A program made the translations under genes and the position numbers. The notes under the pieces are model-generated. The model did no database searches. It saw nothing but the letters and a program-made list of their open reading frames with translations, and was not told where the DNA came from. Source: Escherichia phage JN01. Taken from it: a DNA stretch of 64,000 bases. The stretch is taken from the sequence record MN882542. One strand, 5' to 3'. Shown piece by piece: positions 8,692-49,877 of the stretch. How positions within the stretch are numbered: position 1 is the stretch's first letter; each line of letters opens with the position of its first letter.

Positions 8692-8732
8692 TTGACAAAG
8701 GACTTGACAAGGTGTAGGCTTATAAATACTTA
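8692..8732 (+). promoter_or_regulatory. tandem TTGACA element (TTGACA-N6-TTGACAAGGTGT) followed by TATAAAT
   Basis: Almost the same element recurs at 49848-49870; sits in the divergent intergenic region upstream of the 8842 gene. Confidence 0.4.
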
Positions 8733-8774
8733 GAAGATAACTTAAAAGGTTCCTCTAAAAAGGCTATTTAAACA

Positions 8775-8794
8775 GATATCTTTCTGGATATCTA
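8775..8794. promoter_or_regulatory. inverted repeat AGATATC-N6-GATATCT (operator-like)
   Basis: Perfect 7 bp arms in the divergent regulatory region. Confidence 0.3.
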
Positions 8795-8841
8795 TCTTTT
8801 ATCTTAAAAGCCTTTTAAGAGGTCTTATAAGAGGCATACCA

Positions 8842-9213
8842 ATGAAAAACAGAACAAACAAAGGCCAGTTTAAAAAAGGCCAGTCTGGAAACCCATCTGG
8901 AAGACCAAAAGGCTCTCGTAACAAAAGCTCACTCGTAAAAGCTCAACTGACCATTGATAATTCTGCTGAGTTCGCTGCAAAGCTGTTTGAGGCGATTGTT
9001 ACAAGGGACGCTGCTAAGCTTGCAGAGTTCGGTTTGACGACTGACGATGTAAACCTGAAGTCGATGATGGAAGCTGGTAAAACTATCATGACCCACTCAG
9101 CAGGTGAGATGAAAGCAATTGCAGCAGACACTAAGAAGACCCCTGATAACGGTGGTCAACCTCAGACAGATAACAAACCAACGTTCTCTGCTGTAGCGAC
9201 TCTCAAAAAATAA
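8842..9213 (+). CDS. small basic protein with N-terminal GNPSGRPKG motif
   Basis: ATG start with AAGAGG Shine-Dalgarno; motif KGQSGNPSGRPKGSRNK of a kind seen in phage proteins of unknown function. Confidence 0.65.
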   Translation: MKNRTNKGQFKKGQSGNPSGRPKGSRNKSSLVKAQLTIDNSAEFAAKLFEAIVTRDAAKLAEFGLTTDDVNLKSMMEAGKTIMTHSAGEMKAIAADTKKTPDNGGQPQTDNKPTFSAVATLKK

Positions 9214-9228
9214 TTTTAAAAGGTGTTG

Positions 9229-9262
9229 ACAGACTCTACAAAGTTGCTCTAAAGTCTGTCAC
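9229..9262. promoter_or_regulatory. inverted repeat TGACAGACT-N16-AGTCTGTCA overlapping a TTGACA box
   Basis: 9 bp perfect arms between the 8842 and 9294 genes. Confidence 0.3.
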
Positions 9263-9293
9263 ATCAAACAACAATGAGAGAAGAGAGTAAAAT

Positions 9294-46810: not shown

Positions 46811-46855
46811 AGTAAACTCTCAATATTTACATGCTCACCTTTTAAGTAGCCTGTC

Positions 46856-47026
46856 TTATCTTTTGCGATTTTTTCCTCCAGCAATAAAGATATCTACTCT
46901 ACGTAGAACTTCAGGATTTACCTTCAAATTCCTACAGCTACTGCAAAGAACAATAAACATCCCTTCAATCTCTTTTTGAGAATAACCTGCACATTGCAAC
47001 TGAACTTCAATCTCTGAAAGTGTCAT
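46856..47026 (-). CDS. small protein (56 aa)
   Basis: ATG preceded by AGGAGG Shine-Dalgarno; below the ORF-track cut-off. Confidence 0.4.
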   Translation of the reverse strand: MTLSEIEVQLQCAGYSQKEIEGMFIVLCSSCRNLKVNPEVLRRVDIFIAGGKNRKR

Positions 47027-47039
47027 GTGACCTCCTATA

Positions 47040-47071
47040 TAAGATATTGTATAAGGTACTCTTCCATGAGC
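47040..47071 (-). promoter_or_regulatory. candidate promoter carrying the TTGACAAGGTG element
   Basis: Minus strand reads ATTAGTATTGACAAGGTGCTC; lies between the polymerase stop and the 47026 small gene. Confidence 0.35.
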
Positions 47072-47087
47072 ACCTTGTCAATACTAA

Positions 47088-49787
47088 TTAGTGTACTTCA
47101 AGCCAGCTTTTACCAACCTTACCAGTACCTGTAACAAGTGTTTCTTTCTTAAGACCTAAGTTTTTAGAAGCTTGTCCATAATACCAGTCAGTAACTGCTT
47201 TCACATCTGCCGTCATACTTTCTGGACATTCCCAGCTTGTTTCATCGTGATATGCGCAGAGCAAACGAGCACCAATAGCTGGTTGACGACCATTCAACTT
47301 CATCAAGCCTTCGTCAATCATACGGCGACAAGCAAGGTTAATTGCCTCATTTTGAATCTGAGCCTCTGAACCCATCAAAAGATAGTTCAACAGTTTGTGT
47401 GGAGATTTACACCACAACCAAGCTCCAGCAACCTTTACAAACCCCCCTTTAGAGATTGCAGCAGTCTTACCAAACACCTCTTCAAGTGCCTTTTTAGTCG
47501 CTTTGTAGTCAGCTTCCAAGTCATCTAGTAGCTTCTTAATCTTAGGCAAACGAATAAAGTAAGTCTGTTTAGTCAGTGCACCTTCCTGAGTAGTTGCAGC
47601 TTTAATCGTCTTAGCAAACTTCTCATCACCTGCACCGAACAGCAGTGCATAGATACCATTCTTAGCTTTCTTACGACCCTTGCTAATCTCATGGAGAAGG
47701 TTCTCATCCTGAGTAGCTCGACAAGTTAAGATATCTTGCTCATCATTCAAGCTAAAGTAAATACTGTTCAGTGTGTGTGCATCAGTCCCTGAATAGACAA
47801 CGTAAAGGTCGTTCTCAGAGTCATAGCGAAGGTACTTATCAATCTCTGGATTGAGGTACTCATCAAAGTGTTTGCAGTAATATCGTCCATCTTCTTGACG
47901 AATAAACTCAATCTCTTCTTTACCTTGCGTTACCGCTTTGGTGAAGTCTTTGTCACCCATAAAGTTACAAAGGAGAACTAGCTGGGCTGAGTTCATATCT
48001 ACAGAGACAACGTTAGTACCTTCCTCACAAATCCACACTGCCCTCATTGGTTCCCCATAGACAGCAGCACCAGACGGTACGTTTACAATACCATATTGTG
48101 TCATACGTCCAGTTGAAGTACCAAATACCATTGCACCAGCACTAAGGCGACCATCAGGACGAATCTGGTTCAACCAACCTTTTTCATCATCCTTTGAGTT
48201 CTCAATAGTTCTGCGTCGGTGCATCAAAGTATAGTACTTAGCAATCTTCTGTCCAAGCTCACCTTCAATCGTATCATAAGATGATTCAGTAAGTTTTGGT
48301 GAAGTACGGATTAAGCAAGGCTCAAGCAAATCTGTGTACTTCTTCACAGACCAGTTATGCTCAATGTACTGGACACCTTCATGTTCAACATAACTCAAAC
48401 CACACCGTTCAACCATCTCCTGCCACTTAGGATGCTTGGTAATCATCTTTTTGTTGTCTTTGAAACGACAAACCTTAACAGGACGACCATCTGAGTCTTT
48501 CTTGTAGTTCCAGTCATCTGGAATCCAACCAACTGATTTCAAGTAGTCTTTCACAACTGCTACCTGAGTCATACGAGAAACTTCGAACTCAATTGGTGTA
48601 TATGGTGCATCAATCAAACCTGTGTAGCGACTTGACTCAAGTTCAAAGTGGTTAACAACATGACTGTTATAGTACTTCACAGTCTTAACTGTTTTTACTG
48701 GCTTCCAGTCTTTGCATTTCTTACCAATCTTTGCATTCAACTCATTGCAAATTGCACGAGCATCCTTCATTGCTACAAAACCTTCCTTGTACTCTTCACC
48801 AGTTACAGAGTTGGTTGGTGTATAGCAATTCCGCTTTTCAATGTTAAAAATCTTTGTAGTTGGCTTACCAAATGGCTTGATTTCATATGTCTGCATCTCA
48901 CCGTTACGTACCTGCTGACGATACTTTGTCTTAGGGTACTTGGTAATTCTCTTCAGTCCATCTGCATGACCAAACGCTTCAACATACTCATTCCAAGCTT
49001 TTGCAAATTCTTCTCCAGTGACTTTACCTTTGGTCTTAATAGTTGGTGGAAGGTGTGGTTCAACTTCTGAAGCAAGCTCATTAGTCAACTTGTCAAGTTC
49101 CTTTACATGAAACTCCATAAGCTCTTTATCAGCTTTCCAACCATTGATAGCCTGTTGACTCATCCAGAAAGATGTTTCTTTAGCTCGCATGTAGGTTTCA
49201 TAAGTGTCTACACCACACTTCTTTAACTTCAGATATTCATTATCCAGTGCACGTTTAGTTTTGGCGTTAATACGGATATCTTCTACAACACGAGTGAAGA
49301 TTTCTGCATTCCACACACCCCAATGTTCAATCTCTGGTTTACGTACACCAACACGAGCACCCCATGCTGCCAAGCCATGAGCACCTTTATAGCCCTTTGG
49401 AGTTGGTCTATCCATCCACTGAACACGAGACTGGATAAGAGAATCCTGAAAGAAATTACCCCACGGCTTACACTTTGGATTATCAAAGTTCCACAAATCA
49501 GGTGCAATGTGATTGAAAACCCACCAGTCATACCCCAGACCATTATGGATGCAGAGTCGTTTTGCCTTTAACGCAAACTCAATACCTTCACGTAAGCCAC
49601 CCTTAATGTACTTGGTATACTTGTGACCGAGGATAGGCTCATCTGTAAATACCCATACAGGTGGCTCTTCATCGTCAGATTTATAGTCTGCGAAAGCCAT
49701 TACGTGCACTTTAGTGAACTCAAGGAGTAAACCATCAGTTTCTGTATCACCAACTAAATGTAAGTTTTTAAAATCTACGTTTTCCAT
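47088..49787 (-). CDS. DNA polymerase, family A, with 3-5 exonuclease domain
   Basis: Exo I motif DTETDGL; motif B KKAKNGIYALLFGAG; motif C YHDE; start at ATG 49787 with GAGGGAG Shine-Dalgarno. Confidence 0.9.
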   Translation of the reverse strand: MENVDFKNLHLVGDTETDGLLLEFTKVHVMAFADYKSDDEEPPVWVFTDEPILGHKYTKYIKGGLREGIEFALKAKRLCIHNGLGYDWWVFNHIAPDLWNFDNPKCKPWGNFFQDSLIQSRVQWMDRPTPKGYKGAHGLAAWGARVGVRKPEIEHWGVWNAEIFTRVVEDIRINAKTKRALDNEYLKLKKCGVDTYETYMRAKETSFWMSQQAINGWKADKELMEFHVKELDKLTNELASEVEPHLPPTIKTKGKVTGEEFAKAWNEYVEAFGHADGLKRITKYPKTKYRQQVRNGEMQTYEIKPFGKPTTKIFNIEKRNCYTPTNSVTGEEYKEGFVAMKDARAICNELNAKIGKKCKDWKPVKTVKTVKYYNSHVVNHFELESSRYTGLIDAPYTPIEFEVSRMTQVAVVKDYLKSVGWIPDDWNYKKDSDGRPVKVCRFKDNKKMITKHPKWQEMVERCGLSYVEHEGVQYIEHNWSVKKYTDLLEPCLIRTSPKLTESSYDTIEGELGQKIAKYYTLMHRRRTIENSKDDEKGWLNQIRPDGRLSAGAMVFGTSTGRMTQYGIVNVPSGAAVYGEPMRAVWICEEGTNVVSVDMNSAQLVLLCNFMGDKDFTKAVTQGKEEIEFIRQEDGRYYCKHFDEYLNPEIDKYLRYDSENDLYVVYSGTDAHTLNSIYFSLNDEQDILTCRATQDENLLHEISKGRKKAKNGIYALLFGAGDEKFAKTIKAATTQEGALTKQTYFIRLPKIKKLLDDLEADYKATKKALEEVFGKTAAISKGGFVKVAGAWLWCKSPHKLLNYLLMGSEAQIQNEAINLACRRMIDEGLMKLNGRQPAIGARLLCAYHDETSWECPESMTADVKAVTDWYYGQASKNLGLKKETLVTGTGKVGKSWLEVH

Positions 49788-49847
49788 TTTTACTCCCTCT
49801 AAAATCATTAACCTCATACATTACTGCAAAAAATTATAAAAAGCAAG

Positions 49848-49877
49848 TTGACAATGTGCTTGACAAGGTGTTAATCT
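49848..49877 (+). promoter_or_regulatory. tandem TTGACA element (TTGACA-N6-TTGACAAGGTGT) with TAATCT
   Basis: Near-identical to the element at 8692; divergent region between the polymerase and the 50045 gene. Confidence 0.45.

What the first reader, a model, noticed from the sequence alone, without database searches (positions are those of the whole stretch)
8692..49877. Conserved tandem element TTGACA-N6-TTGACAAGGTGT at two divergent promoter regions
Near-identical 24 nt elements occur at 8692-8715 and 49848-49871, each where a leftward and a rightward gene block diverge. Single TTGACAAGGTG copies occur on the minus strand at 47061-47071 and a variant at 44236-44258. The conserved extension beyond the -35 hexamer suggests more than a plain sigma70 promoter, for example a shared early-promoter class or a regulator binding site. 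Operator-like palindromes lie nearby (8775-8794, 49984-50000).
Basis: seen in the sequence. Interest (0 to 1): 0.5.

Follow-up and report, generated by a model that had tools for sequence, protein, structure and literature searches.

The report
Double -35 early promoters, Felix-like phage
The two 24-base elements are the core of two strong host-type (sigma-70) promoters at the two points where this Felix O1-like phage genome splits into leftward and rightward gene blocks; unusually, each carries a second, strictly conserved copy of the -35 hexamer inside the promoter spacer, and its job is unknown.

Summary
The window is a Felixounavirus (Felix O1-like) genome. Exact TTGACA-N6-TTGACA occurs only there (2 found, about 0.04 expected), and not in the other 22 kb of a 98%-identical genome.

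Each element reads as a rightward sigma-70 promoter:
- an A-tract;
- the first TTGACA as the -35;
- a 17 or 18 bp spacer;
- a TG dinucleotide and a TAnnnT -10 (TAGGCT at 8715-8720, TAATCT at 49872-49877).

Each sits back-to-back with a leftward promoter. The "AGGTGT extension" is the TG and the start of the -10. It is not a separate motif.

The second TTGACA lies in the spacer. It is invariant across four Ounavirinae lineages while the linker varies, and in Hafnia phage Zyzzx it sits at offset 10 or 11 instead of 12. More distant relatives have a single hexamer. No -10 follows the second hexamer.

The same architecture is conserved upstream of gp55 in unrelated aquatic T4-like phages (58 of 71 loci). 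This favours an RNA-polymerase-level role over a Felix-specific operator, but the mechanism is unproven.

The "single copies" are ordinary single promoters. The palindromes lie in transcribed leaders. Verdict: real, mostly ordinary in kind, with one undescribed and testable twist.

The parts
8682..8687 (+). Site 1: A-tract (UP-element-like) just upstream of the first hexamer
   Evidence: Read. Conserved in Suspvirus and Mooglevirus. The same AAAAAGTTG-TTGACA context occurs at other predicted promoters of the window.
8692..8697 (+). Site 1: first TTGACA, the inferred -35 of the rightward promoter. Its reverse complement, TTGTCA (8698->8693), is the -35 of the leftward promoter.
   Evidence: 17 bp from TAGGCT. 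Invariant in all relatives. The leftward promoter TTGTCA-N18-TGcAATAGT was listed by the scan.
8698..8703 (+). Site 1: 6-nt linker between the hexamers
   Evidence: Five of its 6 columns vary among relatives (AAGGAC, AAGTAC, AAGCAC, AATGAC, TTCCTC) against 0 of 12 hexamer columns; Fisher p = 7e-4.
8704..8709 (+). Site 1: second TTGACA, inside the spacer (about -23 to -18)
   Evidence: Invariant in Felixounavirus, Suspvirus and Mooglevirus. In Hafnia phage Zyzzx it sits at offset 11. No TAnnnT lies 16-18 nt downstream of it.
8713..8720 (+). Site 1: TG plus the inferred -10, TAGGCT (8715-8720)
   Evidence: N17 from the first hexamer. Relatives have TAGCCT, so T1, A2 and T6 are kept. Felix O1 reads GGTATAGGCT. 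The predicted start is near 8727 (inference).
8740..8751 (+). Site 1: ACTTAAAAGGTT box in the predicted leader (about +14 to +25)
   Evidence: Identical to 49895-49906. Both sites read CTTAA(A/T)AGACTC in Suspvirus, Mooglevirus and Zyzzx.
8774..8793 (+). Site 1: inverted repeat AGATATC-N6-GATATCT in the leader
   Evidence: Read. It is the apical hairpin of the predicted leader fold, which has z = -2.75. It is invariant in relatives, so conservation does not test the pairing.
8669..8677 (-). Site 1: -10 of the leftward promoter (TGcAATAGT)
   Evidence: Conserved as AATAGT or AATACT in relatives.
49838..49842 (+). Site 2: A-tract upstream of the first hexamer
   Evidence: Read. CAAAAAGCAAG is invariant in four lineages.
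49848..49853 (+). Site 2: first TTGACA, the inferred -35 of the rightward promoter
   Evidence: N18 to TAATCT. Invariant in relatives. The orthologous promoters of Arno18, FIfi106 and PMBT37 have only this hexamer, followed by N17 and TAnnnT.
49854..49859 (+). Site 2: linker
   Evidence: Four of its 6 columns vary (ATGTGC, ATGCAC, ATGTAC, ATTCAC, AATCAC, AACTAC); Fisher p = 5e-3.
49860..49865 (+). Site 2: second TTGACA, inside the spacer
   Evidence: Invariant in relatives. In Zyzzx it sits at offset 10 with N17 kept.
49869..49877 (+). Site 2: extended -10, TGt + TAATCT
   Evidence: Relatives read TGtTAATCT, TGgTAGTCT or TGtTAGTCT. T-15, G-14, T-12, A-11 and T-7 are invariant while -13 and hexamer position 3 vary. 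The predicted start is near 49884 (inference).
49895..49906 (+). Site 2: ACTTAAAAGGTT box in the predicted leader
   Evidence: see the site 1 box.
49984..50000 (+). Site 2: inverted repeat AACGTAT-AGA-ATACGTT in the leader
   Evidence: Read. Mooglevirus has ATGTAT..ATACAT, a change on both arms that keeps pairing.
49818..49846 (-). Site 2: leftward (DNA polymerase) promoter, TTGCTT (49846->49841) - N17 - TAATGT (49823->49818)
   Evidence: Read. The -35 is invariant, and the -10 is TAATGT or TAGGGT with a 17-bp spacer in relatives.
47053..47081 (-). Single-hexamer promoter TTGACAAGGTG...N17...TACCTT, downstream of the DNA polymerase gene. It is not a tandem.
   Evidence: The whole stretch is invariant in Moogle and SUSP2.
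44230..44258 (-).
   Evidence: It is absent at the orthologous place in Moogle and SUSP2.

Best explanation
Each element is the core of a strong promoter read by host sigma-70 RNA polymerase and firing rightward.

Anatomy (read from sequence and supported by comparison):
- an A-tract that can act as an UP element;
- the FIRST TTGACA as the -35;
- a 17 bp (site 1) or 18 bp (site 2) spacer;
- a TG dinucleotide;
- a TAnnnT -10 (TAGGCT at site 1, TAATCT at site 2).

The predicted starts are near 8727 and 49884. The transcripts carry conserved 115-160 nt leaders. Each promoter sits back-to-back with a leftward promoter, so together they form the two divergence points of the genome's four transcription units.

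The SECOND TTGACA lies in the spacer, about -23 to -18. Selection on it is shown. It does not start a second promoter.

Inferred, not shown: the second hexamer is a second docking site for sigma-70 region 4, or for something with the same specificity. It would act at the level of RNA polymerase, for example by raising capture of polymerase, by holding a poised complex, or by serving a remodelled polymerase later in infection. I consider this more likely than an operator for a Felix-specific repressor.
For: Identity of the phage. The window is 97-98% identical to Felixounavirus genomes.

Promoter reading:
- In Suspvirus and Mooglevirus the invariant positions are those a sigma-70 promoter needs. 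Both hexamers, TG, and T1/A2/T6 of the -10 are fixed, while position -13 and the inner -10 bases vary (TAATCT/TAGTCT, TAGGCT/TAGCCT).
- The orthologous promoters of more distant Ounavirinae have one TTGACA, a 16-17 bp spacer and TAnnnT. This holds at site 2 for Arno18, FIfi106 and PMBT37, and at site 1 for phiEa21-4 and P778. This fixes the first hexamer as the -35.
- The same AAAAAG(T/G)TG-TTGACA context occurs at other predicted promoters of the window, for example the tRNA-cluster promoters at 10728 and 10819.

Selection on the second hexamer:
- 0 of 12 hexamer columns vary, against 5 of 6 (site 1) and 4 of 6 (site 2) linker columns; p = 7e-4 and 5e-3.
- Hafnia phage Zyzzx keeps a perfect second hexamer at both sites, but at offset 11 (site 1) and 10 (site 2). 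The distance from the first hexamer to the -10 stays at 17 bp.

Independent lineage:
- I fetched 71 distinct gp55-upstream regions of aquatic T4-like phages by protein, not by motif.
- 58 of them have two perfect TTGACA. The first is always 17 bp from TAnnnT. The second sits at offset 12 (33 loci) or 11 (30 loci).
- Melnitz-1 keeps the inner hexamer perfect while the outer one is TTGCTT.
- A 38-nt consensus of that T4-like family retrieves Felix-like phages at 88-97% identity over 34 nt, E = 2e-7.

Precedent. Sigma-70 region 4 binding to an extra -35-like element is documented at lambdoid late promoters (PMC3326312).
Against: - No transcription start has been mapped for any Felixounavirus. I found no transcriptome in the literature.
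- Both -10 hexamers match the consensus at only 3 of 6 positions.
- At site 1 the TG is at -14/-13, not the canonical -15/-14, and Felix O1 has TA there.
- The Felix O1 genome paper read site 1 differently, as TTGACA(N15)TATAGG, and saw no promoter in the 96-97 region.
- In a normal open complex, region 4 cannot reach a hexamer 5-7 bp from the -10. The proposed docking therefore needs an alternative or remodelled complex, for which there is no evidence here.
- A downstream box changes in concert at both sites across genera. This hints at a trans-acting factor.
- The phage encodes an XRE-type helix-turn-helix protein.
Confidence: 0.6

Rival explanations
1. The two TTGACAA direct repeats are an operator for a phage-encoded DNA-binding regulator. 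The candidate is the XRE-type helix-turn-helix protein at 43296-43625(-). It would switch both rightward promoters off or on together by covering the -35 and the spacer.
For: - Both hexamers are invariant while the linker varies.
- The second hexamer is present at both junctions in the same set of genera.
- A box at about +14 to +25 changes in concert at both sites, which suggests a shared trans-acting partner.
- The phage encodes a helix-turn-helix protein (Pfam HTH_3, 5e-11), which RefSeq annotates as a transcriptional regulator.
Against: - Both repeats are exactly the sigma-70 -35 consensus.
- The hexamer spacing drifts between 10, 11 and 12 bp among lineages.
- The same architecture is conserved in aquatic T4-like phages of very different hosts. 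Whether these phages share a regulator was not tested.
- XRE-type dimers usually bind inverted repeats, not direct ones (established knowledge).
Confidence: 0.2
2. The elements are two overlapping promoters. Each TTGACA is the -35 of its own promoter, with starts about 12 nt apart.
For: Tandem -35 hexamers are what overlapping promoters would look like. At 12245 the scan does list two overlapping candidates 13 nt apart.
Against: The positions 16-18 nt after the second hexamer do not form a -10 in any lineage. At site 1 they read ATACTT, TACTTA or ACTTAG (ACACTT or CACTTA in relatives). At site 2 they read GAAGTG, AAGTGG or AGTGGG. None of these fits TAnnnT in the window, Suspvirus or Mooglevirus. 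I checked Zyzzx and the T4-like family the same way and found none.
Confidence: 0.05
3. The second hexamer is a neutral relic of a 12-bp slippage duplication, or of gene conversion between the two sites, and has no function.
For: - Site 2 reads as an almost clean 12-bp duplication: TTGACAAtGTGc then TTGACAAgGTGt.
- TTGACAAnGTG occurs 5 times in this genome, but the GTG is not conserved in other genera.
Against: - The hexamer stays perfect across four lineages while the linker beside it varies.
- It is retained when its position shifts by 1-2 bp.
- It is equally conserved in an unrelated phage lineage.
Confidence: 0.05
4. The elements are loading sites for processive antitermination, in the manner of lambda Q at PR' or of N at nut/boxA. 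A factor or a remodelled polymerase would engage at the spacer hexamer or at the leader box. Transcription could then read through the many terminators of the 40-kb rightward operons.
For: - The Felix O1 paper notes numerous rho-independent terminators within the transcription units and no explanation for read-through.
- Both rightward promoters are followed by a shared box and hairpins.
- Lambdoid late promoters carry a regulator site in the spacer and an extra -35-like element contacted by region 4 (PMC3326312, and my own knowledge of lambda PR').
Against: - No protein is annotated as an antiterminator in a RefSeq-annotated close relative.
- There is no conserved -10-like pause element in the initial transcribed region. 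TAACTT at 8737-8742 becomes TTACTT in relatives.
- BoxA-like strings are frequent, and they are confounded with the reverse complement of the phage's TAAGAGG ribosome-binding sites.
Confidence: 0.1

Closest known systems
Canonical strong sigma-70 early promoters of virulent and temperate coliphages (T7 A1-A3, T5 early promoters, lambda PL/PR), with UP element and extended -10
   Same: Consensus TTGACA -35, a 17-18 bp spacer, a TAnnnT -10, TG upstream of the -10, an A-tract upstream, and a position at the head of early operons. Divergent back-to-back arrangement, as at lambda PR/PRM.
   Different: A second perfect -35 hexamer lies inside the spacer, conserved across genera. The -10 hexamers themselves are weak (3 of 6). 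I know of no classical promoter with this feature; that statement rests on memory, not an exhaustive check.
Lambdoid late promoters PR' (lambda, 82, 21), where Q is loaded
   Same: More than one -35-type hexamer is present at one promoter. One of them is at a non-canonical short distance from a -10(-like) element and is contacted by sigma region 4 only in a special complex. A regulator site lies in the spacer. A long operon with terminators lies downstream (PMC3326312; details of lambda PR' are from my own knowledge).
   Different: In the lambdoid promoters the extra hexamer lies downstream of the -10, next to a pause-inducing -10-like element in the transcribed region. Here it is upstream of the -10. 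No gene is annotated as Q, and I found no conserved pause element.
[quoted passage not shown]
   Same: Phage-specific, strictly conserved sequence around a consensus TTGACA-N17-TAgAAT promoter. The authors interpreted it as guiding host polymerase to early genes.
   Different: Those repeats have a single -35 and occur in 2-6 copies clustered in one early region. Here there are two copies, at the two divergence points, each with a duplicated -35.
Lambda CII / P22 C1 activator sites (TTGC-N6-TTGC straddling a -35)
   Same: A direct repeat with a 6-nt gap that overlaps a -35 region.
   Different: The CII site is a tetramer repeat with a 10-bp period around a poor -35, and it is activator-dependent. 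Here the repeats are hexamers with a 10-12 bp period, and both are perfect -35 consensus. The TTGC motif is not present.

Membership tests
Sigma-70 (housekeeping) promoter | A -35 hexamer close to TTGACA | tested here: met
   Perfect TTGACA at 8692-8697 and 49848-49853, invariant in relatives.
Sigma-70 (housekeeping) promoter | A -10 hexamer with T1, A2 and T6, placed 16-18 bp downstream of the -35 | tested here: met
   TAGGCT at N17 and TAATCT at N18. Relatives keep T1, A2 and T6 and vary the inner bases. Single-hexamer orthologues have N16-17 followed by TAnnnT.
Sigma-70 (housekeeping) promoter | A transcription start 6-8 nt downstream of the -10, used by sigma-70 holoenzyme | not testable with these tools
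   I found no 5'-end data for any Felixounavirus.
Sigma-70 (housekeeping) promoter | Correct orientation upstream of the genes it serves | tested here: met
   The plus-strand gene blocks start at 8842 and 50045.
Extended -10 promoter | TG at -15/-14, one base upstream of the -10 hexamer | tested here: inconclusive
   Met at site 2 (TGtTAATCT, with TG invariant). At site 1 the TG abuts the hexamer (GTG-TAGGCT), and in Felix O1 it is TA.
Overlapping tandem promoters (P1/P2) | Each -35 has its own -10 at 16-18 bp | tested here: not met
   No TAnnnT follows the second hexamer at that distance in any lineage examined.
Lambda CII-type activator site | A TTGC-N6-TTGC repeat flanking a weak -35 | tested here: not met
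   The sequence is TTGACA-N6-TTGACA with a perfect -35.
Q-type antitermination loading site (lambdoid PR') | A pause-inducing -10-like element in the initial transcribed region, and a Q gene | tested here: not met
   There is no conserved TAnnnT in +1 to +25; TAACTT at 8737-8742 is TTACTT in relatives. No gene is annotated as an antiterminator in BPS17L1. Only part of the window's proteins were scanned against Pfam.
Operator of a phage repressor | Specific binding by a phage-encoded DNA-binding protein | not testable with these tools
   A candidate helix-turn-helix protein exists. Nothing links it to these sites.

The most novel reading that the evidence does not exclude
The spacer hexamer defines an undescribed 'double -35' promoter class, selected independently in Felix O1-like phages and in aquatic T4-like phages. 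In this reading, sigma-70 region 4, or a phage factor that mimics or repositions it, docks at a second consensus hexamer only 5-7 bp from the -10. This would create a poised, roadblocking or antitermination-competent polymerase complex at key junctions of the phage transcription programme. The leader box that co-varies at both sites would be part of the same device.
Probability: 0.2. Interest if true: 0.75.

Novelty: new variant of a known kind. Interest (0 to 1): 0.5.

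Why it matters
How Felix O1-type phages time their transcription is an acknowledged open question. They are classic Salmonella typing phages and are widely used for biocontrol. They encode no RNA polymerase and no known sigma factor or sigma modifier, and the 2010 genome paper found no promoter at all in the DNA polymerase junction.

This analysis places the main rightward and leftward promoters at both junctions. That gives concrete targets for start-site mapping and for engineering.

The conserved second -35 hexamer recurs in unrelated marine and freshwater T4-like phages. 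It is a compact, easily mutated feature. It could reveal a new way of using, or holding, host RNA polymerase. It could also turn out to be a modest tuning element.

Tried and rejected
- IMG/VR scan for TTGACA-N5-CTTGACAA. It returned mostly chance hits. It was useful only because about 25 hits formed a T4-like family.
- Two-gap IMG/VR scan. This was meant to test whether a spacer hexamer is enriched at one offset. Counts pile up on the N17 diagonal (32 in 6 cells against about 15 expected).
- 10728 as a third tandem. Rejected: its second hexamer (TTGATA, TCGATA or TTAATA) is not conserved, and it lies in the loop of a terminator hairpin, GGGTAT..ATACCC.
- TTGACAAnGTG as a functional unit. It occurs 5 times against 0.27 expected, but the GTG is not conserved at 10728 or at the first hexamer of site 2 in other genera.
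- T4-type late promoter TATAAATA at 8721-8728. It is not conserved (TAATAAAA in relatives).
- BoxA/nut similarity of the leader boxes. Such strings are too common, and they are confounded with the reverse complement of the TAAGAGG ribosome-binding sites.
- Rfam. It finds only tRNAs in the window, and nothing in three T4-like loci.
- Consensus folding of the leaders. Energies are modest and covariation is weak. The single-sequence z-scores are -2.75 and -2.17. The long-range helix that would hide the site 2 ribosome-binding site is not kept in Moogle; this comes from my reading.
- Pfam and PHROGs on the first genes on each side of both junctions. They return only DUF5681 and families of unknown function.
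- Host origin. There is no match to the site 1 element in 5,426 E. coli genomes.
- Several broad literature searches returned nothing relevant.

Full report
WHAT THE WINDOW IS. The window is 97-98% identical over long stretches to Felixounavirus genomes (Salmonella phage BPS17L1 and many E. coli and Salmonella phages).
- Genes run leftward from 8613 down to about 1217.
- They run rightward from 8842 to about 40665. This block holds a DUF5681 gene, a Ro/TROVE-like gene, 24 tRNAs, then the packaging, head and tail genes.
- They run leftward from 49817 to 40702. This block holds DNA polymerase, ligase, thymidylate synthase and others.
- They run rightward again from 50045.
These are the four 'transcriptons' of the Felix O1 genome paper. 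That paper noted divergence between genes 40/41 and 96/97 and listed one candidate there, P41 = TTGACA(N15)TATAGG. It found nothing in the 96-97 region, and it states that temporal control is unknown (PMC3185647).

THE OBSERVATION. Both 24-mers are present as described.
- Exact TTGACA-N6-TTGACA occurs twice in the window and at no other gap from 3 to 12. About 0.044 are expected, P about 9e-4. Simulated sequences gave at most one.
- The remaining 22 kb of the genome, read from BPS17L1, has no further tandem.
- TTGACAAGGTG occurs three times against 0.05 expected.
The first palindrome is at 8774-8793.

PROMOTER ANATOMY. The region upstream of the first hexamer is an A-tract (AAAAAAGTTG at site 1, AAAAAGCAAG at site 2). 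The same context precedes other predicted promoters in the window.
- From the first hexamer, 17 bp lead to TAGGCT at site 1.
- At site 2, 18 bp lead to TAATCT, preceded by TGt.
- In Suspvirus (SUSP2, mistaenkt) and Mooglevirus (Moogle, Sf14), the site 2 -10 region reads TGtTAATCT, TGgTAGTCT or TGtTAGTCT. T-15, G-14, T-12, A-11 and T-7 never change, while -13 and the third hexamer base do.
- At site 1 the -10 is TAGGCT or TAGCCT. The bases before it vary (AAGGTG, AAGCTG, AACGTG), and Felix O1 itself reads GGTATAGGCT.
- So 'AGGTGT' is the TG region plus the start of the -10. It is not a motif attached to the -35.

More distant Ounavirinae fix the register. The orthologous promoters have a single TTGACA followed by 16-17 bp and TAnnnT:
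- Arno18: TTGACA-N17-TAGGCT.
- FIfi106 and PMBT37: TTGACA-N17-TACATT.
- phiEa21-4: TTGACA-N16-TAGAAT.
- P778: TTGACA-N17-TGtTAAAGT.

Leftward promoters sit back-to-back with these.
- Site 1: TTGTCA (the reverse complement of the first hexamer plus one base), 18 bp, then TGcAATAGT (conserved).
- Site 2: TTGCTT-N17-TAATGT, which becomes TAGGGT in Mooglevirus with the spacer kept.

THE SECOND HEXAMER. It occupies about -23 to -18 of the rightward promoter.
- It is invariant in every Felixounavirus, Suspvirus and Mooglevirus sequence examined, while the 6-nt linker beside it is the most variable stretch of either intergenic region. Zero of 12 hexamer columns vary, against 5 of 6 and 4 of 6 linker columns; p = 7e-4 and 5e-3.
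- In Hafnia phage Zyzzx both junctions again carry two perfect hexamers, but at offset 11 (TTGACA-aacac-TTGACA-taccct-TACTCT) and offset 10 (TTGACA-gaac-TTGACA-aggggtt-TATTGT). The 17-bp distance from the first hexamer to the -10 is preserved.
- So the sequence and presence of the second hexamer are selected, but not its exact phase.
- It does not head a second promoter. Nothing like TAnnnT lies 16-18 nt downstream of it in any lineage.

AN UNEXPECTED PARALLEL. A scan of IMG/VR for the tandem returned, among chance hits, about 25 contigs of aquatic T4-like phages. Their best matches are Pelagibacter phage HTVC008M, Methylophilales phage Melnitz and cyanomyophages.
- These contigs share far more than the search pattern: aaaagttgTTGACAaagggcTTGACAacgtgTATAGT.
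- To remove the search bias I fetched loci through the neighbouring gp55 protein instead. Of 71 distinct upstream regions, 58 have two perfect TTGACA.
- The first hexamer is always 17 bp from a TAnnnT whose inner bases vary freely (TATAGT, TAAAGT, TACAGT, TATTAT, TAGTAT and others).
- The second hexamer is at offset 12 in 33 loci and at offset 11 in 30.
- Melnitz-1 has TTGCTT-N5-TTGACA-N6-TATATT, so there the inner hexamer is the better-kept one. HTVC008M has a degenerate inner copy, TTGGACA.
- In these phages the promoter points away from gp55, and its -35 region lies about 20 nt from the gp55 start. It would therefore make an antisense transcript, and a polymerase bound there would sit over the gp55 start region. 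That last point is my inference.
- A 38-nt consensus of this family retrieves, among 50,697 phage records, essentially only Felix-like phages, at up to 33 of 34 identical bases, E = 2e-7. Convergence on one optimum and transfer of a promoter cassette would both explain this. I cannot tell which is right.

WHAT THIS MEANS FOR MECHANISM. The only DNA-binding specificity common to enterobacteria and the T4-like phages' presumed aquatic hosts (the isolated relatives infect Pelagibacter and Methylophilales) that is known to match TTGACA is region 4 of the housekeeping sigma factor. That is why I favour a polymerase-level role for the second hexamer over a Felix-specific repressor.
- In a standard open complex, region 4 cannot reach a site 5-7 bp from the -10. 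The role would therefore involve one of three things: an alternative non-productive docking mode, a poised or slowly escaping complex, or a polymerase whose region 4 has been freed or repositioned.
- The third case has a precedent. At lambdoid late promoters, region 4 contacts an extra -35-like element during early elongation (PMC3326312; lambda PR' details are from my own knowledge).
- None of this is shown here.

SIGNS OF A TRANS-ACTING PARTNER. The two sites share a second block, ACTTAAAAGGTT, 23-24 nt after the tandem, at about +14 to +25 of the predicted transcripts.
- In Suspvirus, Mooglevirus and Zyzzx, both sites instead read CTTAA(A/T)AGACTC.
- The 22 nt between tandem and box are unrelated between the two sites. 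A contiguous gene-conversion tract is therefore an awkward explanation, and co-evolution with a shared partner (protein or RNA) is possible.
- The phage encodes one recognisable helix-turn-helix protein, at 43296-43625 on the minus strand (Pfam HTH_3, 5e-11). RefSeq annotates it as a transcriptional regulator in BPS17L1. Nothing ties it to these sites.

THE OTHER ITEMS IN THE FINDING.
- The site at 47081(-) is TTGACA-N17-TACCTT. It lies just after the DNA polymerase stop and is invariant over about 45 nt in Moogle and SUSP2, so conservation says nothing about which bases matter.
- The site at 44258(-) is TTGACA-N17-TATTTT, with AGGTGT four bases further from the hexamer than in the tandems. 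It is absent in Moogle and SUSP2.
- A fourth TTGACAAGGTG, outside the window, lies inside a terminator hairpin and is followed at N18 by TAGGCT.
- The palindromes at 8774-8793 and 49984-50000 lie in the predicted leaders and share no sequence.
- The site 2 palindrome keeps pairing in Mooglevirus through changes on both arms.
- The leaders fold better than shuffled controls (z = -2.75 and -2.17), partly because the CTTAAAAG and CTTTTAAG boxes are mutually complementary. Covariation support is weak.

NOVELTY AND VERDICT. Conserved, extended early promoters are known in phages. One example is the 41-nt repeats of PAK_P1-like phages (PMC4309531).
- I found no description of the tandem hexamers in the Felix O1, UAB_Phi87, Felixounavirus-comparison or pelagimyophage papers.
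- The finding is therefore a real pair of host-type promoters, which is ordinary in kind.
- It carries one feature that is conserved, recurrent in an unrelated lineage, unexplained and cheap to test.
- I rate it a new variant of a known kind, with interest 0.5.

Noticed in passing
window 1-1200: An ORF-free stretch is packed with dozens of short repeats, often phased at 11 bp. The repeats are CTTGTTAG, CTGTTAAG, TCTTAACAA, and CTTAAAAG / CTTTAAAG / CTATAAAG types. The stretch is conserved at 90-96% in Felixounavirus and is annotated 'repeat_region' near a genome end in phage mio. It could be an origin, a packaging field or a protein-binding field. TGTTA repeats at an 11-bp period resemble the ArcA-type direct-repeat architecture (from memory only).
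   Followed up: partly
window 8741-8831, 49896-50036, 1-300, 44372: The 8-mer CTT(W)(W)AAG clusters in non-coding DNA. About 20 of roughly 32 sites are non-coding, and several overlap TAAGAGG ribosome-binding sites.
   Followed up: partly
window 8740-8751 and 49895-49906; L250, L001, L002, L005, L248, L339: The leader box ACTTAAAAGGTT is shared by both junctions. At both junctions it reads CTTAA(A/T)AGACTC in Suspvirus, Mooglevirus and Zyzzx. This is a concerted change at two sites 41 kb apart.
   Followed up: partly
L254-L333 (aquatic T4-like contigs), L245, L246: A conserved double -35 promoter lies about 20 nt upstream of gp55 (the late sigma factor) and points away from it, antisense to the preceding gene. 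Its start region is conserved (cgagTATGTCC / ctcGGTGTTCC / GTGTAGCC). It may produce an antisense RNA or act as a polymerase roadblock controlling gp55. It has no Rfam match.
   Followed up: partly
window 44186-44457 (minus strand): A non-coding region lies downstream of a consensus promoter, TTGACA-N16-TATACT at 44451(-). It has a hairpin, GGTGAGTA...TACTCACC, spanning the -10 and start region, followed by GGT-rich repeats. It is expanded to about 560 nt in Moogle and SUSP2. It may be a small RNA.
   Followed up: no
window 43296-43625 (minus strand): An XRE-type helix-turn-helix protein (Pfam HTH_3, 5e-11). It is the only gene annotated 'transcriptional regulator' in the close relative BPS17L1.
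   Followed up: partly
window 9294-10709 and 10875-16527: A Ro60/TROVE-like vWA protein (DUF2828, DUF7788; PHROG 'RNA-binding protein') lies immediately upstream of a cluster of 24 tRNA genes. Two promoters, at 10728 and 10819, lie between them.
   Followed up: no
window 10720-10751; BPS17L1 (L336) about 19400-19450, minus strand: Here promoters are embedded in terminator hairpins. The -35 TTGACA lies in the loop or stem of a GC-rich inverted repeat followed by a T run: AAAGGGTATTGACA...ATACCCTTT, and TTGACAAGGTGATGT...ACATCACCTTTTTT.
   Followed up: no
window 49787-49817 (minus strand): The longest DNA polymerase ORF starts at 49817. The start with a ribosome-binding site (GAGGGAG) is ATG at 49787, and this is where relatives annotate it.
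   Followed up: yes
(phage record collection): A 38-nt consensus built from aquatic T4-like contigs matches Felixounavirus site 1 at up to 33 of 34 bases (E = 2e-7), and matches essentially nothing else among 50,697 phage records. Convergence and transfer of a promoter cassette both remain possible.
   Followed up: partly
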